From: Parcubacteria group bacterium
GTDB lineage: Bacteria; Patescibacteriota; Patescibacteriia; UBA1558; GWA2-36-10
Assembly (NCBI GenBank): GCA_003104935.1
Contig: PQAE01000002.1
Span: forward strand, 67,527 to 131,526
Direction of reading: 5' to 3'
DNA length: 64,000 bases
A program made the position numbers and the translations under genes. Positions 1-58,374 of this stretch are shown one piece after another. The notes beneath the pieces are model-generated. The model was not told the origin of the DNA. It saw nothing but the letters and a program-made list of their open reading frames with translations, and made no database searches. The first letter of the stretch is position 1. Every line of letters begins with the position of its first letter.

Positions 1-813
1 TAATCCAGCTGGCACAAATGGTATTAATGCAGCTCCTGTATCAACGCTTAAATCGACAAATGATCCTAGAAAAGCTTTTGATGCATCTGATGCCTGCTGA
101 AGATTTCCAGAAAATAAGGAACCTACAAATTGCCCTCCTTTATACAATGTATTACCAGCATCATAAGTAACAAAACCGACATCTATAGCCGTATCTACTA
201 TCTGCCCATCGGAATCCGTGTTCTTTACTGGATTATTAGCTACATAGCTATAGCTATTAAGGTTCTGTGGATTTGATAAATAATACTCTGCAGAGTAATC
301 GTACTCTTCTTCAAATTGATCACTATCATGGATTTTTAAAACGGCTGGGTCTACGCTCATAAACCTCCCCGTAGTATTATCTAAATACCTGGCTCCATAG
401 TATTGTAGATTGTTTTCTTGGTCTAATTCTTTACCGGTAAACTTCTTGGTATTATCAATAGTAGAGTTAAGAGTCTTGACTTGGCCATAGGGGTCATAAT
501 CATTGGTTTCCAGTATATTTCCCTGCCTATCGGTAATGATAGTAGGAGAACCAAGGTGGTCAGTTAGATTATACTCTGTACTAGTATTACTGAATGTGGA
601 TATCTTTTGATCGCCTAGATAGATATTAACCTTAAAATTACCGTCTTTATCTATTTCAAAGTATTTATCAATGTACTTTGTCTGATCTGTGGTGATGTTT
701 TCATAATGACCAGAGCTAGTAGCGAGTACCGGGTTGATAAAGGAAAAAAATAATAAGCCTAAGCTTATTATAGCAAATATCTTTCTGTTTGTGACTTTTC
801 TTCTGCCAGTCAT
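1..813 (-). CDS. Rhs-core polymorphic toxin paralog. N-terminal ~270 aa only; the C-terminal toxin region runs past the window start.
   Basis: Start codon at 811-813 (cat on the + strand). Nucleotides 361-900 are near-identical to 6640-7186, the 5' part of CDS 5944..7098. The translation keeps the Rhs core-end motifs (YSY..NNPVKNTDSDG) and then diverges. Confidence 0.6.
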   Translation of the reverse strand, partial: MTGRRKVTNRKIFAIISLGLLFFSFINPVLATSSGHYENITTDQTKYIDKYFEIDKDGNFKVNIYLGDQKISTFSNTSTEYNLTDHLGSPTIITDRQGNILETNDYDPYGQVKTLNSTIDNTKKFTGKELDQENNLQYYGARYLDNTTGRFMSVDPAVLKIHDSDQFEEEYDYSAEYYLSNPQNLNSYSYVANNPVKNTDSDGQIVDTAIDVGFVTYDAGNTLYKGGQFVGSLFSGNLQQASDASKAFLGSFVDLSVDTGAALIPFVPAGL

Positions 814-5045: not shown

Positions 5046-5369
5046 CTAGCCTCCGATAAAAAAAATTTTATCTCTGTCTTCAGGATGAATAACATAACTT
5101 AATAAATCATGCCTCATCGCTCCAGTCTTTTTAAAGTTTAGTTTAGCTTCACGTAAAGTCATATGATTAGGGCCATCTAAATATTCACTATTGTCAATAT
5201 CCAAGTCATTAGCAAACTCATCTTCCCAAAAACAAACTGGACACACTAAATTTTCACCCCTACTTTCCAATGTAATGTAACCGCAGCAAGGGCATGGCTC
5301 TGTAGGATCATAATAATCAACGGATTTCTTTGAACGATACTTAAGTAATAATTCTTTGTCTTTTATCAC
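5046..5369 (-). CDS. CPCC-family cysteine-rich small protein
   Basis: 107 aa with CPCCGY...CPVCFWEDE, the signature of the CPCC cysteine-rich domain family. Confidence 0.6.
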   Translation of the reverse strand: MIKDKELLLKYRSKKSVDYYDPTEPCPCCGYITLESRGENLVCPVCFWEDEFANDLDIDNSEYLDGPNHMTLREAKLNFKKTGAMRHDLLSYVIHPEDRDKIFFIGG

Positions 5370-5385
5370 ACAATCCGATTAAATT

Positions 5386-5616
5386 TTAGTGATCAAATCC
5401 GGATAATTCAATATGTACTAATTTACCGCCTTCAGAAAAGGATAAAATTATGTCAGCCCCCAAGGAATCTAAATATTGGCACCCTTCGTCAGATAATGAA
5501 ACCGTTTTTTTTACTTTATTTTCTGAAAGCGGTATCGCAGTTAAACCGTCTTCATAATCATAGGTCACGTTGATTTTTTTTCTCTCATATATTTCATTAT
5601 TAATTACTCCGGCCAC
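5386..5616 (-). CDS. DUF2283-like small protein
   Basis: 76 aa. The pattern INVTYDYEDGLTAI...ADIILSFSEGGKLVHIELSG resembles DUF2283 (YDxExDxLYI ... IVGIEIL). It overlaps the upstream gene by 13 bp. Confidence 0.45.
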   Translation of the reverse strand: MAGVINNEIYERKKINVTYDYEDGLTAIPLSENKVKKTVSLSDEGCQYLDSLGADIILSFSEGGKLVHIELSGFDH

Positions 5617-5943: not shown

Positions 5944-7098
5944 TTATTTTTTAAAAAAATCCCCTAATATATTTTCTTTGACGTATTTATATGCCTTATC
6001 TGGTTGGAATACTGTAGGTTGTTTTGGATTGTCAATAAATAGAATATTATCTTTAATGTTATAAAAATATTTTTTAACTCCCTTAATAGTTGCCTTGATA
6101 TCAAAATTCTTGAATGTATCCTTGGTTATATCTGTCACCTCTTCGATTGTCTTTCCTTTAAAATGACCCTGCTCTAATGCGTGCCTCGCCGCTGAAATGA
6201 ATGTTTTGTCTGCTGTTTCTAAACTTTTCCCAATAACTTTCTCCTCTCCACCCACACTAGTATCAAGAGTCGTTAACAACAAGGAAAATAATCTTGTGTT
6301 TGTCTTTTGTTCAGGGTCATAAAGATTGGCCACGTTATCAACAAAATCACCCAAGCTATTTGTAACAAACCCTGAAGCTTTACTGACGGTGCCACCCTGA
6401 TTACAAGTATAATTAGCCGCATTATGTAGGAATGAAGAAATATCTCTCTGACCACTAGCCATATCTACACCAAACTGACCATAAAATTTTCCATCAGGAT
6501 CCGTATATTTTACCGGATTATCCCCAGCATAACTATAACTATTCAGGTTTTGTGGATTAGCCAGTTGTTCTTGGACACTTCTACCATAGGCCTTGGTAAA
6601 ATCCTGGTCATCATTAAGTATAAAAAGTGCCGGATCTATAGAATAAAATCTCCCTGTAGTATTATCTAAATACCTGGCTCCATAGTATTGTAGATTGTTT
6701 TCTTTATCTAATTCTTTACCGGTAAACTTCTTGGTATTATCAATAGTGGAGTTAAGAGTCTTGGCTTGACCATAGGGGTCATAATCATTGGTTTCAAGTA
6801 TATTTCCTTGACTGTCGGTAATAATGGTGGGAGAACCGAGGTGATCGTTTATGTCATACTGTGTGCTAGTATTACTGACTGTGGATATCTTTTGATCACC
6901 AATATAGATATTGACCTTAAAATTACCGTCTTTATCTATTTCAAAGTACTTATCAATATATTTAGTCTGATCGGTAGTGACATTTTCATAGTGACCAGAC
7001 TCGGTCGCAAAGATTGGTTGTACAAATAAAAAAAATAACAGGAATAATACTATTATAGCAAAAATCCTGTTGTTTGTGACTTTTCTTCTGCCAGTCAT
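5944..7098 (-). CDS. secreted short Rhs-core polymorphic toxin (signal peptide, Rhs repeat-associated core, variable C-terminal toxin domain)
   Basis: 384 aa with an N-terminal hydrophobic signal/TM segment. DINDHLGSP...YDPYGQ...FTGKELDKENNLQYYGARYLDNTTGRFYSIDP...NLNSYSYAGDNPVKYTDPDG is the Rhs/YD core with the terminal DPxG site. About 185 aa of unassigned C-terminal domain follow it. Confidence 0.7.
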   Translation of the reverse strand: MTGRRKVTNNRIFAIIVLFLLFFLFVQPIFATESGHYENVTTDQTKYIDKYFEIDKDGNFKVNIYIGDQKISTVSNTSTQYDINDHLGSPTIITDSQGNILETNDYDPYGQAKTLNSTIDNTKKFTGKELDKENNLQYYGARYLDNTTGRFYSIDPALFILNDDQDFTKAYGRSVQEQLANPQNLNSYSYAGDNPVKYTDPDGKFYGQFGVDMASGQRDISSFLHNAANYTCNQGGTVSKASGFVTNSLGDFVDNVANLYDPEQKTNTRLFSLLLTTLDTSVGGEEKVIGKSLETADKTFISAARHALEQGHFKGKTIEEVTDITKDTFKNFDIKATIKGVKKYFYNIKDNILFIDNPKQPTVFQPDKAYKYVKENILGDFFKK

Positions 7099-7143: not shown

Positions 7144-7240
7144 TTATAGCTTTAATGTAATCCTCTAGATAAAATTTGTCAAGAAAAAATGCCCCTTCAA
7201 CAAGGCCACTTTTGGGTCAACCCTAGTCGCTAAAATGAAA

Positions 7241-7272: not shown

Positions 7273-7370
7273 TGGAGCCGGTGAGAGGACTTGAACCTCC
7301 AACATATGGTTTAAAACGAAACCAGGGCTTCGTCATCCACCACTGCTCTACCAATTGAGCTACACCGGCC
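7273..7370 (-). tRNA. tRNA-like gene with a ~21-nt insertion in the anticodon loop; anticodon unassigned (possible intron-containing tRNA or pseudogene)
   Basis: Read on the minus strand, G+GCCGGTG TA GCTC-AATTGGTA-GAGC A GTGGT[28 nt]ACCAT ATGTT GGAGG-TTCAAGT-CCTCT CACCGGC T CCA. The acceptor, D and T arms are canonical and CCA is encoded. The anticodon stem GTGGT/ACCAT encloses 28 nt instead of 7. Confidence 0.55.
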
Positions 7371-39310: not shown

Positions 39311-39325
39311 TTTGAAAAGGTAACT

Positions 39326-39356
39326 AAAACGCGCCGCGTCTGACGCGGCGCGTTTT
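39326..39356. terminator. bidirectional intrinsic terminator between miaA and gatB
   Basis: AAAACGCGCCGCG-TCTGA-CGCGGCGCGTTTT. Confidence 0.55.
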
Positions 39357-39363
39357 CAAATGT

Positions 39364-43076: not shown

Positions 43077-43143
43077 ATTATTTATTTAAACCTTTCTACC
43101 CCCCCCCACCATCTCCACCTTACCAAGGGGGAGGGAGAGGGGG

Positions 43144-47196: not shown

Positions 47197-47343
47197 CTAA
47201 ATCCTATTTTTCCGACGCAACAAGCTAATACCGACTAAAATCAGAAGCACTCCCCAGGAATAACCCCAAAAACTGCCGCTGATCCAACCGGCTTGCTGGG
47301 CAATGGAAAAGGCCCCGAGGACAATAAGCAATACACCAAACAT
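47197..47343 (-). CDS. small hydrophobic peptide (48 aa; below the ORF-track cutoff)
   Basis: MFGVLLIVLGAFSIAQQAGWISGSFWGYSWGVLLILVGISLLRRKNRI. A TTGGAT-18-TATAAT promoter precedes it on the minus strand at 47366-47395. Confidence 0.3.
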   Translation of the reverse strand: MFGVLLIVLGAFSIAQQAGWISGSFWGYSWGVLLILVGISLLRRKNRI

Positions 47344-47740
47344 AGAAAAAAATTAATACTTATAGCTCCATTATACAATATCGGGCTGATAAAATCCAAT
47401 AAAAAATAGTAGCTCTGAGGCTAACGATAAGCACCACGGAATCTGATCAGAAGATCAGAGACTGAGGTTTTGCACTCTGCCCGGCAAAAAGGAGGGGCAT
47501 CGCCGGCCAAAGACTTAACGTTAGCATCAGAGCTACCATTGACTAGGCACTTTATCACCGGATTTTTACTTTGTCAAGAAAATAAGTATACCCTAGTGCT
47601 CCCGCGCTACGGGATTCATTATCTATAGTGGTCAATAGAACCACGTCCCCGCCTGCCATGCCAAGACACTGGCGGGCAGGTCGCCCCGTAGCGACCCCGT
47701 TAGACGCACTGGCGTCTAACAAGGTTAATATAAACAAAAA

Positions 47741-47765
47741 GGGACCCGCCCGAAAGCGAGTCCCC
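47741..47765 (-). terminator. intrinsic terminator downstream of the acidic small ORF
   Basis: On the minus strand, GGGGACTCGC-TTTC-GGGCGGGTCCC followed by TTTTTG. Confidence 0.45.
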
Positions 47766-47789
47766 TAAAAAAGCAGCGATTGACCGCTG

Positions 47790-47978
47790 TTAATCGTCCC
47801 AGTCCTCAGGATAGTCGTCATCTTGTTCCGGCCAACCAAGGTTCAAACCATGTAGCTCGTGGTCTTCGTCGACAGGATCTTCATCGCCGTCAACCGAAGG
47901 AATCTCTAGAGGGATCAACTCGCTGTCTTCCTCATCATCGCCGGGGAAAAAATAGATCCCAAACACAGGGATACACAA
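47790..47978 (-). CDS. hypothetical highly acidic small protein (GC-rich islet)
   Basis: 62 aa with a TTG start preceded by GGAGGTG. About 45% of the residues are Asp/Glu. A terminator follows. Confidence 0.35.
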   Translation of the reverse strand: MCIPVFGIYFFPGDDEEDSELIPLEIPSVDGDEDPVDEDHELHGLNLGWPEQDDDYPEDWDD

Positions 47979-48157
47979 GTGAGCACCTCCATCAGGTTTT
48001 GAAGCCAGTCTGAATCAGGACTTAAGAAAATAACAAACAACACTAATTATTGCTCAAAATGAATACCCTGTCAATTAAAACCGATAATAAAAAACGACAT
48101 TTTTTGCCAAAAAAAACAAATAATGGTATATTCAAAATGGGTTTTTACCCGAAATAT

Positions 48158-48616
48158 ATGCCTATTTTAGCCAAAAACAAAGACCTCGGCTTTAGCTTCA
48201 AGATTCTGGACGAACTTGAAGCCGGTTTGGTTTTAAGCGGCCAGGAAGTCCGCTCGGCTAAACAGGGAAACATCAGTCTCAAAGGCGCCTTTGTTTCCAT
48301 AAAAAACGGCCGGGCCTGGCTGAAAAATATGCATATTACCGCCTATGATAAGGCTAGTCATGATCTGAAAAATTATAACCCCGACCGCGATCGGGAATTA
48401 CTTTTGCACCAGAAGGAACTGCAATATTTAGGGGCTAAAACCCAGGCTGAGGGCTTGACAATCATGCCCATTTCCGTGTATACTACGCGCAGACTTGTTA
48501 AGGTCAAAGTGGCCTTAGTCAAGGGAAAAAAGAAATTTGACAAGCGAGCGGACATCAAAAAACGAGAAATTGATCGTCGCATCGCCCAAAAGTTAAAAGG
48601 TAACTACCGAAGATAA
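48158..48616 (+). CDS. smpB: SsrA-binding protein
   Basis: LAKNK...ILDELEAGLVLSGQEVRS...GRAWLKNMHITAY...RELLLHQKE matches the SmpB signature. A TTGCCA-17-TATATT promoter at 48100-48128 argues for an internal start. Confidence 0.85.
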   Translation: MPILAKNKDLGFSFKILDELEAGLVLSGQEVRSAKQGNISLKGAFVSIKNGRAWLKNMHITAYDKASHDLKNYNPDRDRELLLHQKELQYLGAKTQAEGLTIMPISVYTTRRLVKVKVALVKGKKKFDKRADIKKREIDRRIAQKLKGNYRR

Positions 48617-48656
48617 TGCTTTATACTTGTTACTTTTTACTTTATACTTAGCTTAC

Positions 48657-49040
48657 GGGGATGTCTTTATTCGATGTCAGATGAAGTGATTTGTGGCAAG
48701 CGGAGTCTGCTATCTCCTTAAAAAGGCTAACAAAATAAGTGCCAAAAACTTATTTGCCAAAGTCCAGGGACTGTTCGCAGTTCCGAGACTGGCCCCAGTT
48801 TTAGCATAAATTTGCTGAAACCATCTCTAGCCAGGTTCGCCTGAGACGGGCTACGGGGTGTCATTTATCGGGATAGAAATAATTCGCGCCGACCGGATTA
48901 TTTCGAAACTAAGATCGGCTGGATGATCAGTGTTTTGCTAATTTTTAAGCTGATGATCGAGAACCAAAAAATTAACTAAGCTTGTAGAAATAAATCAGGA
49001 CATTTGTCAGACAGGGGTGTAATACCCCTCATCTCCACCA
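48657..49040 (+). ncRNA. ssrA: tmRNA (transfer-messenger RNA)
   Basis: 5' GGGGATG..TTCGATG and 3' AGGGG-TGTAATA-CCCCT CATCTCC A CCA. The acceptor stem has the G3-U70 Ala identity pair and a discriminator A. A candidate tag reading frame ends ...GCAGTTCCGAGACTGGCCCCAGTTTTAGCATAA (AVPRLAPVLA*). It is adjacent to smpB. The T-loop is atypical. Confidence 0.65.
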
Positions 49041-49140
49041 TCCTTCGCTCGGCGTAGCCGAGCTTCGGATGGCTGAGCCATCCGAACGAGCCGCAGGCTC
49101 GAAGAAGGATGGTGTCGTCCGAAGCCTCTGGCGAAGGACG
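49041..49140. repeat. palindromic multi-hairpin element abutting the tmRNA 3' end
   Basis: Three perfect hairpins: GCTCGGC-GTA-GCCGAGC; TTCGGATGGCT-G-AGCCATCCGAA; CGAGCC-GCA-GGCTCG. They are followed by GAAGGATGGTG, which is inverted relative to the tmRNA 3' end CACCATCCTTC. Related CACCATCC/GGATGG motifs occur at 43097-43140 and 44048-44085. Confidence 0.4.
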
Positions 49141-49218
49141 ATAAATGAATTAACATTTATATTCTCCCACTCCCTACAAGGACAGGGAGAACGCCAAAAA
49201 ATAAATTAATAAAAAACT

Positions 49219-49743
49219 ATACTGAACAAAAAACCAAATTGGCAATCTGCCGGACGCCAATATCGCGTCAACGAGCAGATCCGCAGTGCTCAGGTCGATG
49301 TCATCGACGAAGACGGCACCCGGCTCGGTATCTTGCCCACCAGGCAAGCTATTGATCTGGCTTATGAAAAAAATATCGACCTGGTCGAGGTCTCTCCCCT
49401 GTCCGATACTCCCGTCTGCAAGATTATGGACTACGGTAAATTCCTTTACCAACAGCGCCGTAGCCAGCAAAAAAATAAGGTCCTGGATACCAAGGGAGTG
49501 CGTTTGACCTTTAAGATGGGCCAGCATGACCTGGATATCAGAAAAGCTCAGGCCGAAAAATTTTTATCCAAGGGCCATAAGGTGCGGGTGGAGCTCCGCC
49601 TGCGCGGTCGGGAAAAAGCTTTCCGCAATCAGGCCAAAGAGCTTATAACTAACTTTATCAATCAACTTAGTACTGGCTACAAAGCCGACAAGAGCATCGA
49701 AATTATGGGACCGACCCTGAGCATCCTGATTTATAAAAAGTAA
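49219..49743 (+). CDS. infC: translation initiation factor IF-3, probable non-AUG start
   Basis: The track ORF (49333..) is preceded in frame by RVNEQIRSAQVDVIDEDGTRLGI, the IF-3 N-terminal domain. There is no in-frame ATG after the upstream stops. The candidate start is ATA at 49219 (CTG is an alternative). The C-terminal domain has KGVRLTFKMGQHDLDIRK. Confidence 0.75.
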   Translation: MLNKKPNWQSAGRQYRVNEQIRSAQVDVIDEDGTRLGILPTRQAIDLAYEKNIDLVEVSPLSDTPVCKIMDYGKFLYQQRRSQQKNKVLDTKGVRLTFKMGQHDLDIRKAQAEKFLSKGHKVRVELRLRGREKAFRNQAKELITNFINQLSTGYKADKSIEIMGPTLSILIYKK

Positions 49744-50759: not shown

Positions 50760-50829
50760 AAAATGACTGATTTTAAAACCCTGTCGCGTCAGACGCGACA
50801 GGGTTTTGTGGGCCGTTGTAAGCCCCTAG

Positions 50830-56929: not shown

Positions 56930-57373
56930 TTATCTAGTAGCGCTGATGGTCGCTCCTTGTTCGGCGCTGGGTGCCAGGACCGTTACCCGGTTATTGGCTG
57001 ATTTTTGTATCTTATAGCCGGTACCGTTGGTGGAAGAGCCGGTCGGATCCAACGGAATAGAAGTAATATATTTTTCATTGAGTGTCAGCACCGACAAGTC
57101 AATCAAACCCACACAAGAAGCACTGGTTTTACAAACCTCTACCTGGGCATTTGTAATCGATGCCGGTATTGAGCCGTTATCTATAGAATATTGATAAACG
57201 GCATTGAGAATAGTATTGACATCGGCCCGGCGCTGAGCATTACGCGTCTCCCCTAATTGCTTGGTGGGGTTAATAGCTAAGATAACGATACCGGCCAAAA
57301 TAGAAATGGCCGCTACTACTAAGAGGATCTCAATCAAAGTGAAACCCTTTTTTCCCTGAAGTAATTTTCTCAT
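56930..57373 (-). CDS. type IV pilin (prepilin with class III signal)
   Basis: MRKLLQGKKG|FTLIEILLVVAAISILAGIV... has the canonical G/FTLIE cleavage and methylation site. Confidence 0.8.
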   Translation of the reverse strand: MRKLLQGKKGFTLIEILLVVAAISILAGIVILAINPTKQLGETRNAQRRADVNTILNAVYQYSIDNGSIPASITNAQVEVCKTSASCVGLIDLSVLTLNEKYITSIPLDPTGSSTNGTGYKIQKSANNRVTVLAPSAEQGATISATR

Positions 57374-57411
57374 AAAATAATGTTAAAAATTATTTAAGTA
57401 TTTGTTAAATT

Positions 57412-57852
57412 TTATCTAGTGACGCTGATAGTGATCCCTAGTTCGGCCATGACCGCAGCCACCATCACCCGGCCGCCGGCGGTCTTCATGACCACATAAC
57501 AGGTGCCATTAGGGTTACAGGTAGCACCGGGATCATGGGGGATAGCGGTTAGATATTTTTCATTTGTAGTCAGCACCGAGAGGTCGGCCAGCCCAGCACA
57601 AGTGCCGCCGGTCTTACATATTTCCAACAGCCCGGTAGTGATAGAGCTCGGTAGCGCACCATTGTTATCAATAGCATATTGATAAACCGCGTTGAGGATC
57701 GTATTAACATCGGCCCGGCGCTGAGCATTACGCGTTTCTCCCAGTTGTTTACTGGGATTAATAGCCAAAATAACGATACCGGCTAAAATAGCGATAGTAG
57801 CCACGACTAGTAGGACTTCGATCAAAGTAAACCCCTTTTTATTACAAATAAA
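57412..57852 (-). CDS. type IV pilin paralog (start uncertain)
   Basis: ...NKFICNKKG|FTLIEVLLVVATIAILAGIV... The track ORF extends to 57924 and overlaps the upstream pilin by 47 bp. A 10-aa leader would need an ATA start at 57850-57852. Confidence 0.65.
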   Translation of the reverse strand, partial: FICNKKGFTLIEVLLVVATIAILAGIVILAINPSKQLGETRNAQRRADVNTILNAVYQYAIDNNGALPSSITTGLLEICKTGGTCAGLADLSVLTTNEKYLTAIPHDPGATCNPNGTCYVVMKTAGGRVMVAAVMAELGITISVTR

Positions 57853-57877
57853 TTTATTTATTAAAAATATTAAAATT

Positions 57878-58345
57878 TTACCTGGTAACGCTGATAGTGG
57901 CTCCTTGCTCGGCTGAGGGAGCACAAACTGTTACTCGGCCATTGGCGCTCTTGGACACATAATAACCAGTGCCGTCAGTTGATGAAACTGTAGGATCAAT
58001 CGGCAGAGAAGTTAAGTATTTTTCGTTAGTCGTTAAAACAGTCATCGCCACCCCGGCCGAACAGGTGCCGGAAGCCGCGCCTTTACAAACCTGATTAGCC
58101 GCTACCAAAGCACAGGAACCAGTCGGTATAGTGGGCAAAGTACCGTTATTATCTATAGAGTACTGATAGATGGCGTTTAAAATAGTATTGACATCGGCGC
58201 GGCGCTGAGCATTTCGCGTTTCTCCCAGCTGTTTACTGGGATTGATAGCAATAATGACAATGCCGGCCAAAATACCAATCGCCGCTACGACCAATAGGAT
58301 TTCCAAAAGAGTGAATCCGGATCGTTTTTTAAAAAATTTAGGCAT
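57878..58345 (-). CDS. type IV pilin paralog
   Basis: MPKFFKKRSG|FTLLEILLVVAAIGILAGIV... The N-terminal half is about 80% identical to the two paralogs and the C-terminal half is variable. Confidence 0.8.
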   Translation of the reverse strand: MPKFFKKRSGFTLLEILLVVAAIGILAGIVIIAINPSKQLGETRNAQRRADVNTILNAIYQYSIDNNGTLPTIPTGSCALVAANQVCKGAASGTCSAGVAMTVLTTNEKYLTSLPIDPTVSSTDGTGYYVSKSANGRVTVCAPSAEQGATISVTR

Positions 58346-58374
58346 AATTTTTTTAATTAATTATTTATGTAAAT

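What the first reader, a model, noticed from the sequence alone, without database searches (positions are those of the whole stretch)
48657..49140. smpB-adjacent tmRNA with a non-canonical T-loop and a possible atypical tag, followed by a triple-hairpin palindromic element
The G3-U70 acceptor stem, the discriminator A with CCA, the 5' TTCGA motif and the position next to smpB all support a tmRNA of ~384 nt. The T-loop is TGTAATA rather than TTCRANT. The only in-frame Ala-initiated tag I can read ends in AVPRLAPVLA-stop, which is unlike the common ...ALAA ending. Directly after the CCA comes a 100-bp array of three perfect hairpins, plus an inverted partial copy of the tmRNA 3' end (GAAGGATGGTG against CACCATCCTTC). 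That resembles an att-site scar from integrase-mediated insertion at ssrA, or a REP-like terminator array. Copies of the CACCATCC/GGATGG motif at 43097 and 44048 suggest a dispersed family.
Basis: partly seen in the sequence, partly recalled or inferred. Interest (0 to 1): 0.55.

Follow-up and report, generated by a model that had tools for sequence, protein, structure and literature searches.

The report
CPR tmRNA followed by palindromic repeats
This is a genuine tmRNA (ribosome-rescue RNA) gene of a Patescibacteria/CPR bacterium whose odd T-loop and tag are normal for its lineage, followed by a small cluster of GC-rich palindromic repeat units that pairs with the tmRNA's own CCA end; it is not a scar of an integrated element.

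Summary
The tmRNA call is correct to the base: Rfam tmRNA covers 48657-49040 (124.6 bits). ARAGORN misses it only because of the T-loop; with a canonical loop substituted it returns the same ends and the tag AKNLFAKVQGLFAVPRLAPVLA. Neither oddity is peculiar to this gene. Among 123 distinct Patescibacteria tmRNAs, 59 have G at the U55-equivalent position, and none of those keeps the D-loop GG. "...PVLA" is the commonest tag ending.

The "triple hairpin" is three copies of one unit: stem, GAA, GC hairpin, GAA, stem. One copy is inverted, so the copies can also pair as a four-way junction (-71 kcal/mol, z -8.3) that takes in the tmRNA's CACCA.

The unit occurs 29 times in 0.93 Mb of related DNA (about 1 expected), 16 of them just 3' of ssrA. 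It also occurs elsewhere, in tandem, and in both orientations, and it is absent or truncated in close relatives. That pattern is REP/BIME-like.

There is no second ssrA 3' end, no integrase, and synteny is intact, so the att-scar reading is not supported. The element's RNA-level role (3' barrier or processing helix) is inferred. Modest interest.

The parts
48158..48616 (+). smpB (SsrA-binding protein), 152 aa from the ATG at 48158
   Evidence: 602 homologues, best 91% identical, all carrying PF01668; named hits are Patescibacteria/Parcubacteria/Komeilibacteria SmpB
48617..48656 (+). smpB-ssrA spacer with TACT-containing heptamer-like repeats and a weak promoter-like site (TTTATA 48620-48625, TATACT 48643-48648)
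   Evidence: direct repeat CTTTATACTT x2; promoter scan 9 of 12 matches; period-7 array, 6.6 copies, in L165. Promoter function is inferred, not shown
48657..49040 (+). ssrA / tmRNA gene, 384 nt, CCA encoded
   Evidence: Rfam RF00023 124.6 bits, full length; ARAGORN gives the same ends once the T-loop is made canonical
48741..48809 (+). tag reading frame AKNLFAKVQGLFAVPRLAPVLA plus TAA stop; resume codon GCC 48741 after the conserved AUAAGU
49013..49029 (+). T-arm: 5-bp stem AGGGG/CCCCT with the non-canonical 7-nt loop TGTAATA (49018-49024)
   Evidence: sequence; the same loop type in 59 of 123 distinct Patescibacteria tmRNAs
49038..49072 (-). repeat unit 1, inverted orientation. On the minus strand it reads CCATCC-GAA-GCTCGGC-TAC-GCCGAGC-GAA-GGATGG. 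Its basal stem uses the tmRNA's CCA
   Evidence: structural scan; this basal stem is 92.9% paired across 7 homologues, with 3 pairs changed on both sides
49078..49112 (+). repeat unit 3: CCATCC-GAA-CGAGCC-GCA-GGCTCG-AAGAA-GGATGG
   Evidence: read from the sequence; the inner hairpin is 100% paired in homologues. The scan misses it because its 3' loop is AAGAA
49036..49114 (+). alternative and lowest-energy pairing of units 1 and 3: a four-way junction with an 11-bp outer stem CACCATCCTTC/GAAGGATGGTG enclosing hairpins 49047-49063, 49064-49086 and 49087-49101
   Evidence: inverted repeats I5 and I7; MFE -71.1 kcal/mol, z -8.3; junction -71.1 against side-by-side units -56.0 kcal/mol
49115..49141 (+). 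repeat unit 2 ('module B'): TCGTCC-GAA-GCC-TCT-GGC-GAA-GGACGA, a hairpin with a symmetric GAA/GAA internal loop
   Evidence: the stem is 100% paired in homologues with 4 pairs changed on both sides
49162..49191 (+). hairpin upstream of infC (not part of the repeat cluster). Relatives have a conserved YCCCTAAAGGR-type loop at this position
   Evidence: inverted repeat I11; conserved in trailers of L002, L003, L005, L009, L014, L017, L081, L161. A leader function is inferred

Best explanation
Positions 48657-49040 are the functional ssrA (tmRNA) gene of a Patescibacteria (CPR) bacterium, next to its partner gene smpB. It belongs to a large sub-lineage in which the tRNA-like elbow is altered. The T-loop reads UGYRAYN (G where tRNAs and most tmRNAs have U55/psi55) and the D-loop has lost its GG doublet, so the usual D-loop/T-loop contact must be made differently. 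The tag (22 residues ending APVLA) is the lineage's normal degradation tag. Immediately after the CCA sits a cluster of three copies of one short GC-rich palindromic unit: basal stem, GAA, GC hairpin with a 3-nt loop, GAA, basal stem. The first copy is inverted. Because the copies share arms (CCATCC/GGATGG), they can fold either side by side or as a four-way junction whose outer helix takes in the tmRNA's CACCA. I read this as a REP/BIME-like repeat cluster, a duplicating and dispensable element family of Patescibacteria with a strong preference for the 3' flank of ssrA. It is carried on the ssrA precursor transcript. There it most likely acts as a very stable 3' structure that stalls or ends transcription and blocks 3'-to-5' exonucleases, and that presents the CCA end in a duplex for endonucleolytic 3' maturation. 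Shown: gene identity, ends, tag, lineage-wide T-loop/D-loop pattern, unit architecture, its statistical excess, its clustering at ssrA, its presence/absence polymorphism, and compensatory changes. Inferred: that it is transcribed, how it spreads, and any role in termination or processing.
For: tmRNA identity. Lineage: SmpB hits name Patescibacteria. T-loop/D-loop: of 123 distinct tmRNAs, 59 have G at T-loop position 2 and none of these has GG in the D-loop; 45 of the 62 with U there keep GG. The window's own tRNA keeps a canonical T-loop (TTCAAGT) and D-loop GG, so the change is specific to the tmRNA. Tag: AKN..FAKV..LF.VP..APVLA in close relatives; PVLA is the commonest ending, 25 of 119. Unit family: 29 units in 0.93 Mb against 0-3 in ten shuffles that keep local composition; 16 of 29 lie within 450 nt 3' of ssrA, which is about 6% of the sequence. 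Repeat-element behaviour: (1) two full tandem copies in L043 plus a third upstream of smpB; (2) a 3-copy tandem array in L054; (3) a copy after an unrelated gene in L007; (4) both orientations occur; (5) absent from close relatives L002, L003, L005, L009, L010, L169; (6) in L161-163 (91% SmpB identity) the distal ~58 nt are missing between homologous flanks GCCATC...ATGAATTAA. Structure is maintained: compensatory changes in the basal stem, hairpin 1 and module B. GC-containing perfect helices anchored on the last ssrA nucleotide: >=8 bp in 15.8% of loci against 2.0% at other CCA sites, p = 3e-10. Background on 3' maturation of E. coli pre-tmRNA (RNase III or E, then RNase T/PH): PMC3968760.
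Against: (1) Only one cluster is found in this 64-kb window, so in this genome the element is not demonstrably repetitive. (2) No RAYT/Y1 transposase or other mobilising gene was seen among the 20 ORFs scanned with Pfam, which span 39.4-46.2 kb and most of 50.3-63.9 kb; the rest of the window and genome was not examined. (3) Several unrelated sequence types (TCCTTCGC..., YTCGAYTC..., TGAAGT..., and a plain terminator in L023) all pair with the tmRNA 3' end. That looks like selection for a function at ssrA rather than pure selfish spread. (4) With G.U pairs allowed and random anchors, fold-back helices of >=8 bp are not enriched, so the signal rests on the GC-rich subset. (5) The covariation alignment has only about 5 independent sequences, and MAFFT misaligns the right arm. 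(6) No expression data exist.
Confidence: 0.6

Rival explanations
1. The structure is a dedicated, selected part of the ssrA precursor. A 3' trailer has evolved to base-pair with the CCA end and give a long duplex for an endonuclease (an RNase III-type enzyme, or whatever replaces RNase E in these reduced genomes) and/or to terminate transcription before infC. Its repeat-like look would be secondary.
For: At least four sequence-unrelated trailer types pair with the last 2-9 nt of the tmRNA: L023 20 bp, L099 17 bp, L089 15 bp, window 11 bp. Enrichment is 8-15 fold over other CCA sites. Compensatory changes maintain the helices. The order is always junction first, GAA hairpin second, in the direction of transcription. 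E. coli pre-tmRNA is cut at its 3' end by RNase III or E (PMC3968760).
Against: It is absent from most relatives (>=8-bp helix in only 15.8% of loci). These include very close ones, where the CCA is followed directly by the AT-rich infC leader. It is half-deleted in L161-163 with no change to the tmRNA. The same units occur away from ssrA, in both orientations and in tandem. Unit 1 presents UUC/UUC rather than GAA/GAA on the transcribed strand, so the conserved loop cannot be an RNA motif in all copies.
Confidence: 0.25
2. The hairpins and the inverted copy of the ssrA 3' end are the scar (att site) of an integrase-mediated insertion or excision at ssrA, marking a genomic-island boundary.
For: ssrA 3' ends are classic integration targets (established knowledge). 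An 11-nt inverted copy of the 3' end is present.
Against: The repeat is inverted, not direct. There is no second copy of the last 15-27 nt of ssrA in 64 kb, even with 2-3 mismatches. No integrase, recombinase or phage gene lies nearby. The downstream genes are infC-rpmI-rplT-vanZ, in the same order as in relatives that lack the element.
Confidence: 0.02
3. The 79-nt four-way junction is an independent structured RNA: a riboswitch-like or ribozyme-like element, for example a self-cleaver that makes the CCA end, a relative of the sucA motif, or a leader regulating infC-rpmI-rplT.
For: Very stable fold, z -8.3. Sub-threshold, full-length Rfam match to the sucA motif RF01070: 28.5 bits, E about 1e-3. 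It lies upstream of infC.
Against: The sucA score is below the gathering score of 40, with non-standard pairs in the alignment, and that family belongs to Burkholderiales sucA leaders. No known ribozyme or riboswitch family matches even at E <= 10, and type II elements match nothing either. All loops are 3-nt and the junctions are nearly flush, which leaves almost no unpaired conserved nucleotides for a ligand or catalytic core. The element is dispensable in close relatives, whereas the separate infC-proximal hairpin is the conserved one.
Confidence: 0.06
4. The hairpin cluster is a small TIGR-type (Tas-associated) guide-RNA array, a system known from parasitic bacteria and their phages.
For: TIGR systems occur in such organisms, and some have stem-loop arrays (PMC12045711).
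Against: TIGR arrays have alternating 8-12-nt repeats with 9-nt spacers, or stem-loops carrying dual spacers in their loops. They usually have 5-15 units and sit next to a Nop-domain Tas gene. Here the loops are 3 nt, there is no periodic spacer pattern, and the neighbours are smpB and infC.
Confidence: 0.01

Closest known systems
tmRNA / ssrA (Rfam RF00023) with SmpB
   Same: Full-length covariance-model match. Acceptor stem with G3.U70, discriminator A and CCA. 5-bp T-stem with a 7-nt loop. Alanine resume codon, short tag ORF with a stop, hydrophobic ...LA C-terminus. Gene adjacent to smpB.
   Different: The T-loop is UGUAAUA instead of T-psi-C-R-A-N-N, so no U is available for psi55. The D-loop has no GG. 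The tag is 22 residues rather than about 10. ARAGORN does not find it. All of these are shared by a large Patescibacteria sub-lineage.
REP elements and their BIME clusters (enterobacteria, pseudomonads)
   Same: Short (25-45 nt) GC-rich imperfect palindromes with a conserved mismatch. Extragenic. They occur singly, in tandem and in alternating orientation, so neighbouring copies can pair. Presence/absence varies between close relatives. They often lie at 3' ends of transcription units, where they can stabilise RNA.
   Different: No sequence similarity. The copy number seen here is low (one cluster in 64 kb). No RAYT-type transposase has been identified. There is a strong preference for one locus (3' of ssrA), with the first unit built onto the tmRNA's CCA.
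Rho-independent (intrinsic) terminators
   Same: GC-rich hairpins directly after a highly expressed RNA gene. Other RNA genes in these genomes (tRNAs) are followed by plain hairpin + T-run terminators.
   Different: No T-run follows any of the hairpins in the window. There are multiple hairpins with conserved GAA/GAA internal loops, and copies occur in divergent promoter regions (L043, L054, L125).
tRNA/tmRNA-targeting integrative elements (att sites at ssrA)
   Same: Location at the 3' end of ssrA, and a repeat of its terminal nucleotides.
   Different: The repeat is inverted and only 5 nt of it is tmRNA sequence. There is no integrase, no island and no direct repeat.

Membership tests
tmRNA (RF00023) | Covariance-model score at or above the curated gathering score, full length | tested here: met
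   124.6 bits against 47, model positions 1-374 of 374
tmRNA (RF00023) | tRNA-Ala-like acceptor stem: 7 bp with G3.U70, discriminator A, 3' CCA | tested here: met
   48657-48663 pairs with 49030-49036; G48659.T49034; A49037; CCA 49038-49040
tmRNA (RF00023) | Canonical T-loop sequence (T-psi-C-R-A) and a D-loop GG that contacts it | tested here: not met
   The T-loop is TGTAATA and the D-loop is TCTTTAT with no GG. This is a lineage-wide variant (59 of 123 tmRNAs), not a defect. ARAGORN finds the gene only after the loop is changed to TTCGAAT
tmRNA (RF00023) | Internal tag ORF starting at an Ala codon and ending in a stop, with a protease-type hydrophobic C-terminus | tested here: met
   AKNLFAKVQGLFAVPRLAPVLA*, 48741-48809; conserved in relatives
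tmRNA (RF00023) | Aminoacylation with alanine and trans-translation activity with SmpB | not testable with these tools
   Needs biochemistry or proteomics. smpB is adjacent and intact
REP/BIME-like palindromic repeats | Short imperfect palindromic unit, statistically over-represented and extragenic | tested here: met
   29 units against 0-3 in shuffles across 0.93 Mb of Patescibacteria DNA; the sites inspected are intergenic
REP/BIME-like palindromic repeats | Many dispersed copies within one genome | tested here: inconclusive
   One cluster in the 64-kb window. At least 4 units at 3 sites within 6.4 kb of L043, and tandem arrays at two sites in L054. Whole genomes were not available
REP/BIME-like palindromic repeats | Clusters with units in alternating orientation | tested here: met
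   Unit 1 is inverted and units 2 and 3 are direct in the window. The first unit is likewise inverted in L165, L043, L114 and L123
REP/BIME-like palindromic repeats | A cognate RAYT (Y1 transposase) in the genome and a conserved 5' GTAG-type cleavage motif | not tested
   No transposase among the 20 ORFs scanned with Pfam (39.4-46.2 kb and most of 50.3-63.9 kb). The rest of the window and genome was not scanned. GTAG occurs inside some units (CC-GTA-GC) but its meaning is unknown
Intrinsic terminator | GC-rich hairpin followed at once by a run of T | tested here: not met
   After 49141 the sequence is TAAATGAATTAACATTTATA. No terminator-like site is reported at 49040-49160 on the + strand
att site / genomic island at ssrA | Direct repeat of the ssrA 3' end bounding a segment that carries an integrase | tested here: not met
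   No second copy; no integrase; synteny conserved
sucA RNA motif (RF01070) | Score at or above the gathering score, in the 5' UTR of sucA in Burkholderiales | tested here: not met
   28.5 bits against 40; wrong gene context and wrong phylum
TIGR-Tas array | Regular array of alternating short repeats with 9-nt dual spacers, next to a Nop-domain Tas gene | tested here: not met
   No such periodicity and no Tas gene

The most novel reading that the evidence does not exclude
The GAA/GAA-loop hairpin units (with the related YTCGAYTC and TGAAGT types) may be an undescribed Patescibacteria-wide element class. It would dock specifically onto the 3' end of ssrA and be used as the 3'-maturation and termination signal of tmRNA in organisms that lack the E. 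coli-type machinery. In the same lineage the tmRNA elbow has been rebuilt (G55, no psi55, no D-loop GG), which implies a different SmpB-tmRNA elbow contact. Together these would mean that trans-translation RNA biogenesis and architecture in a major part of the CPR differ from the textbook model.
Probability: 0.15. Interest if true: 0.6.

Novelty: new variant of a known kind. Interest (0 to 1): 0.35.

Why it matters
Practical: ARAGORN-based annotation will miss ssrA in a large part of the Patescibacteria. All 59 G-type tmRNAs here are of the kind it failed on, so such genomes may be wrongly scored as lacking trans-translation. The T-loop/D-loop pattern given here explains the misses and how to correct for them.

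Biological: the universal U55 (psi55) and D-loop GG are lost together in tmRNA but not in the tRNA of the same genome. This is a natural experiment on how the SmpB-bound elbow is held together.

The repeat units add a REP/BIME-like element family to a phylum known for tiny, streamlined genomes. They have an unusual hot spot at ssrA and a helix that buries the CCA end. If that helix is used for 3' maturation, it would show how stable-RNA processing works in these organisms. None of this is dramatic, and the core object is an ordinary, essential gene.

Tried and rejected
1. att-scar / island: searched for a second copy of the ssrA 3' end, scanned flanking ORFs with Pfam and compared synteny. Rejected.

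2. Dispersed family inside the window: 8-mer, 23-mer and whole-window repeat searches and the structural unit scan found no other copy.

3. Known RNA families: Rfam at gathering threshold and at E <= 10. Only a sub-threshold sucA-motif match, rejected on score, pairing and context. No ribozyme or riboswitch match.

4. TIGR-Tas arrays: read PMC12045711. The anatomy does not fit.

5. K-turn / box C/D-like reading of the GA-rich internal loops: considered from the sequence. The loops are symmetric 3x3 (GAA/GAA or GUA/GAA) without the 3-nt bulge, and they occur in both orientations relative to transcription. Not pursued.

6. First version of the fold-back statistic: the shuffled control looked strong, but a real-sequence null with G.U allowed showed no enrichment at >=8 bp. 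I replaced it with a Watson-Crick-only, GC-containing statistic tested against other CCA sites.

7. First unit scan was too strict and picked up AT-rich noise; it was replaced.

8. Scans of the viral collection for the unit and for GAGCTTCGGATGGC: hits are chance matches in high-GC contigs. Uninformative.

9. tRNA genes as a second hot spot: tRNA trailers mostly carry ordinary terminators. Only L054 has unit-like repeats after a tRNA.

10. Literature searches for CPR tmRNA peculiarities or CPR palindromic repeats found nothing specific. The library is limited to open-access papers, so absence there is weak evidence.
Full report
**1. What is at 48657-49040**

The Rfam tmRNA model (RF00023) matches window 48657-49040 on the + strand over its whole length (positions 1-374). 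The score is 124.6 bits against a gathering score of 47, E = 3e-48.

The following features are read directly from the sequence:
- The acceptor stem pairs 48657-48663 with 49030-49036 and contains the G.U pair at position 3 (G48659.T49034).
- The discriminator is A49037 and CCA is encoded at 49038-49040.
- The T-arm is AGGGG-TGTAATA-CCCCT (49013-49029).

The gene upstream (48158-48616) is smpB. It has 602 homologues, all carrying PF01668. The best is 91% identical, and the named hits come from Patescibacteria, Parcubacteria and Komeilibacteria. The organism is therefore a member of the Candidate Phyla Radiation.

**2. Why ARAGORN is silent, and the tag**

ARAGORN reports no tmRNA in the window. 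I replaced the T-loop in silico. Changing positions 2 and/or 3 alone did not help. A fully canonical loop (TTCGAAT) made ARAGORN report a tmRNA at 48657-49040 with the tag AKNLFAKVQGLFAVPRLAPVLA*. The miss is therefore caused by the T-loop, and the ends and the tag are confirmed independently.

The resume codon is GCC 48741, preceded by AUAAGU, and the stop is TAA 48807-48809.

**3. The T-loop and the tag are lineage traits, not oddities of this gene**

I fetched 160 SmpB-anchored loci from genome and metagenome collections, plus 13 loci for closer relatives. I located ssrA with a scan that uses only the acceptor and T-stem pairing.

Results for 123 distinct tmRNAs:
- 59 have G at T-loop position 2 (the U55 equivalent; consensus UGYRAYN). 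None of these 59 has a GG doublet in the D-loop.
- 62 have U at that position, and 45 of these keep GG.
- The G-type usually encodes CCA (49 of 59 against 17 of 62).
- ARAGORN found none of the 22 closest relatives but did find many U-type tmRNAs in more distant Patescibacteria.

The one tRNA gene in the window has a normal TTCAAGT T-loop and a D-loop GG, so the change is specific to tmRNA.

According to the review PMC3968760, the tmRNA T-loop normally carries m5U and pseudouridine. The same review states that D-loop/T-loop interactions are needed for SmpB binding. With G at this position there is no uridine to convert, and the usual loop-loop contact must be replaced. That last step is inference. 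These counts involve related sequences and are not independent events.

For the tag, close relatives encode AKN(L/T)FAKV(K/Q)ELF.VP.(L/F)(A/S)PVLA after the same AUAAGU context. L165 has AKNLFAKVQELFKVPRLAPVLA. Across the set the median tag length is 22 residues, and PVLA is the commonest ending (25 of 119), followed by PALA (20). The tag is therefore unusual only by E. coli standards.

**4. Anatomy of the region after the CCA**

The three perfect hairpins and the 11-nt inverted repeat CACCATCCTTC/GAAGGATGGTG are real. As RNA, 49030-49150 folds into a four-way junction plus a fourth hairpin at -71.1 kcal/mol. The z-score is -8.3, and none of 200 shuffles folds as well.

Reading both strands shows that the region is built from one unit used three times: [basal stem ending ...TCC] - GAA - [GC hairpin with a 3-nt loop] - GAA - [GGA... 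basal stem].
- Unit 2 (49115-49141) is TCGTCC-GAA-GCC-TCT-GGC-GAA-GGACGA.
- Unit 3 (49078-49112) is CCATCC-GAA-CGAGCC-GCA-GGCTCG-AAGAA-GGATGG.
- Unit 1 (49038-49072) is the same unit inverted. On the minus strand it reads CCATCC-GAA-GCTCGGC-TAC-GCCGAGC-GAA-GGATGG.

Units 1 and 3 share the arms CCATCC and GGATGG. They can therefore fold side by side (-56.0 kcal/mol) or cross-pair into the four-way junction (-71.1 kcal/mol). In both folds the left arm includes the tmRNA's own terminal nucleotides: CCA in the side-by-side fold, CACCA in the junction.

**5. The unit is a family**

A structural scan for the unit found 29 instances in 0.93 Mb of Patescibacteria DNA, on both strands. Ten shuffles that keep local composition gave 0-3 instances.

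Sixteen of the 29 lie within 450 nt 3' of ssrA, which is about 6% of the sequence searched. In the window, L165, L043, L114 and L123 the first unit is inverted and starts on the last nucleotides of the tmRNA.

Other copies are clearly elsewhere:
- after an unrelated 789-codon ORF in L007;
- between divergent genes upstream of smpB in L043 and L125;
- as a 3-copy tandem array upstream of smpB in L054, with related repeats after a tRNA-Asp gene in the same locus.

L043 carries two complete tandem copies of the whole module (junction plus GAA hairpin) after ssrA.

A second, commoner sequence type occupies the same place with the same layout in L001, L004, L006-L008, L012, L015, L082, L089, L099, L104, L111, L170 and L172. 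It reads CCA|YTCGAYTC...GARTCGAA|TG|YCCTGAG...CCGAAGGRCACGAGA. It also has no Rfam match. A third type (TGAAGT...ACTTCA|TG) occurs in L020, L054, L077 and L143.

**6. Presence and absence**

Many close relatives have no such element. In L002, L003, L005, L009, L010, L013, L014, L016-L018 and L169 the CCA is followed by AT-rich sequence that runs straight into a conserved hairpin upstream of infC.

L007, L008 and L009 have nearly identical tmRNA 5' ends, yet two carry an element and one does not.

In L161-L163 (SmpB 91% identical to the window) only unit 1 and half of the next hairpin remain. The sequence then rejoins the window's at ...ATGAATTAA. This is a clean indel of about 58 nt. The element is therefore dispensable and turns over quickly.

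**7. Is the structure maintained?**

I aligned seven homologues of the window's type. About five of them are independent, and MAFFT misaligns the right arm. Both folds nevertheless exceed the shuffled and slid controls:
- Junction fold: 78.8% of cells paired, covariation score 0.141 against 0.075 in shuffles.
- Side-by-side fold: 83.3% of cells paired, covariation score 0.182 against 0.066.

The helix formed with the tmRNA end is 92.9% paired, with three pairs changed on both sides. The unit 2 stem is 100% paired, with four such pairs.

By eye, the outer stem covaries: TCCTTC/GAAGGA (window), TCCTAC/GTAGGA (L165), TCCTG/CAGGA (L167), GCCTTC/GAAGGC (L043).

Such compensation fits selection on a hairpin in RNA or in single-stranded DNA. 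It also fits palindrome correction by template switching. The data do not separate these possibilities.

**8. Does the trailer really fold back on the tmRNA end more than expected?**

My first control, which shuffled the trailers, suggested a strong effect. A stricter null used random anchors in the same loci and allowed G.U pairs. It showed no enrichment at >=8 bp (26.5% against 29.3%) and only a 2-fold excess at >=10 bp.

I then restricted the test to perfect Watson-Crick helices with at least four G-C pairs and compared them with other CCA trinucleotides in the same loci. The effect is then clear:
- >=8 bp in 15.8% of 114 loci against 2.0% (p = 3e-10);
- >=10 bp in 10.5% against 0.7%.

The cases include sequence-unrelated ones. 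One example is L023, where an ordinary A-tract/T-tract terminator is extended by 9 bp of complementarity to TCTCCACCA. The feature is real but is found in a minority of lineages.

**9. What it is not**

- **Not an att scar.** There is no second copy of the last 15-27 nt of ssrA in the window. The flanking genes are GatB, Tmk, TK, dUTPase, DHFR, ThyA, NUDIX and dCMP deaminase on one side. On the other side are infC, rpmI, rplT, VanZ, PIN-PhoH, two response regulators, a histidine kinase and type IV pilus genes. None is an integrase or transposase. The order smpB-ssrA-infC-rpmI-rplT-vanZ is the same in relatives.
- **Not a classical intrinsic terminator.** No T-run follows the hairpins.
- **Not a known RNA family.** The only Rfam signal is a sub-threshold match to the sucA motif (28.5 bits against 40), from another phylum and another gene context.
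- **Not a TIGR array**.
- **Not a dispersed family within this window**.

**10. Most likely mechanism**

I rank first a REP/BIME-like reading (confidence about 0.6 for the whole statement). On this reading the element is a short palindromic unit family that duplicates, inverts, decays and moves between intergenic sites in Patescibacteria, with a hot spot directly 3' of ssrA.

The element lies between ssrA and infC on the same strand with no terminator before it, so it is very probably part of the ssrA precursor. There a structure of -71 kcal/mol that buries the CCA would be expected to do three things. It would impede RNA polymerase, block 3'-to-5' exonucleases, and offer a duplex next to the mature end for an endonuclease. 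In E. coli that first cut is made by RNase III or RNase E (PMC3968760). These RNA-level steps are inferred.

The main rival (about 0.25) is that pairing with the CCA is the selected function and the repeat-like behaviour is secondary. The recurrence of the fold-back in unrelated sequence types argues for this rival. Four points argue against it: the element is absent or truncated in close relatives, it occurs in both orientations, copies occur away from ssrA, and UUC/UUC replaces GAA/GAA on the transcribed strand of unit 1. The two readings can be combined as a selfish palindrome that is tolerated or retained at ssrA because it is useful there.

**11. Novelty and score**

The tmRNA is a new member of a known family. 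Its elbow variant and the repeat family are variants of known kinds (tmRNA; REP/BIME-like repeats). I found neither described in the searchable literature, which is weak evidence of novelty.

A specialist would find the T-loop/D-loop co-loss and the docking of a palindrome on the CCA end mildly surprising and of practical use for annotation. It is not a major surprise. Interest 0.35.

Noticed in passing
window 7273-7369 (-): A tRNA-like gene (Rfam tRNA 54.9 bits; ARAGORN 'tRNA-???') with normal acceptor, D and T arms and an encoded CCA. Its anticodon arm continues through a 4x4 internal loop into an extra 8-bp helix (GACGAAGC-CCUG-GUUUCGUU), so there is no ordinary 7-nt anticodon loop. It could be a short intron or a tRNA-like RNA. 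A plain hairpin + T-run terminator follows it.
   Followed up: partly
window 361-660 vs 6646-6945, and 877-898 vs 7162-7183: A direct repeat 6285 nt apart: 300 nt at 91% identity, plus a 22-nt stretch in the same register. The second copy ends about 90 nt from the odd tRNA gene.
   Followed up: no
window 48617-48656; L165 586-631; also L167 and L161: In the window's closest relatives, the spacer between smpB and ssrA is a heptamer-like tandem repeat containing TACT (period 7, 6.6 copies in L165). In L169, L172, L001 and L007, ssrA starts within 0-15 nt of the smpB stop.
   Followed up: partly
window 49162-49260: infC has no ATG/GTG/TTG upstream of its conserved RVNEQIR motif. In-frame ATA (49219) or CTG (49222) are the likely starts, which recalls the unusual AUU start of E. 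coli infC. A hairpin at 49162-49191 precedes it. Its counterpart in relatives carries a conserved YCCCTAAAGGR loop, so this may be a leader of the infC-rpmI-rplT operon.
   Followed up: partly
window about 47200-48050: An ORF-poor stretch of about 800 nt between the Impact_N/LiaF-like genes and smpB. It has a strong minus-strand terminator-like hairpin (47739-47766) and an 11/12 promoter-like site on the minus strand (48046-48074). There is no Rfam match at E <= 1 apart from two weak sRNA hits. Relatives annotate only small genes of 45-72 codons with no Pfam family here. It may hold an unannotated small RNA or small protein.
   Followed up: partly
window 39323-39360 and 50772-50809; L008 about 3510: Two bidirectional terminator-like palindromes (A-run, GC stem, T-run) share the core GCGTCWGACGC. 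The same core forms the first hairpin of the ssrA 3' element in L008.
   Followed up: no
window 57176-58364: Three tandem copies of a unit of about 485 nt (71-76% identity over 217 nt) lie in a run of small genes. The one scanned (56930-57373) has a type IV pilin N-terminal methylation motif, so these are probably paralogous pilin-like genes next to T2SSF/T2SSE genes.
   Followed up: no
L043 3852-4092 and 2790-2900; L054 2190-2328 and after the tRNA-Asp at 5315-5391: Some Patescibacteria genomes carry the palindromic units in tandem arrays and at several sites within a few kb. There are two identical 119-nt modules after ssrA in L043, and 3-copy and multi-copy arrays in L054. Copy number therefore differs greatly between genomes.
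   Followed up: partly
L011, L026, L067, L085, L097, L167 (100-250 nt 3' of ssrA): A conserved motif GAGCTTCG(G/A)ATGGCA(G/A)GCC recurs some distance downstream of the first units, in genomes whose SmpB is only about 50-65% identical to the window's. The same words (GAGCTTCGGATGGC) lie inside the window's element. Its meaning is unknown.
   Followed up: no
all loci (catalogue of 123 tmRNAs): Encoding of the 3' CCA in ssrA tracks the T-loop type: 49 of 59 G-type against 17 of 62 U-type tmRNA genes encode CCA. This may simply reflect phylogeny.
   Followed up: no
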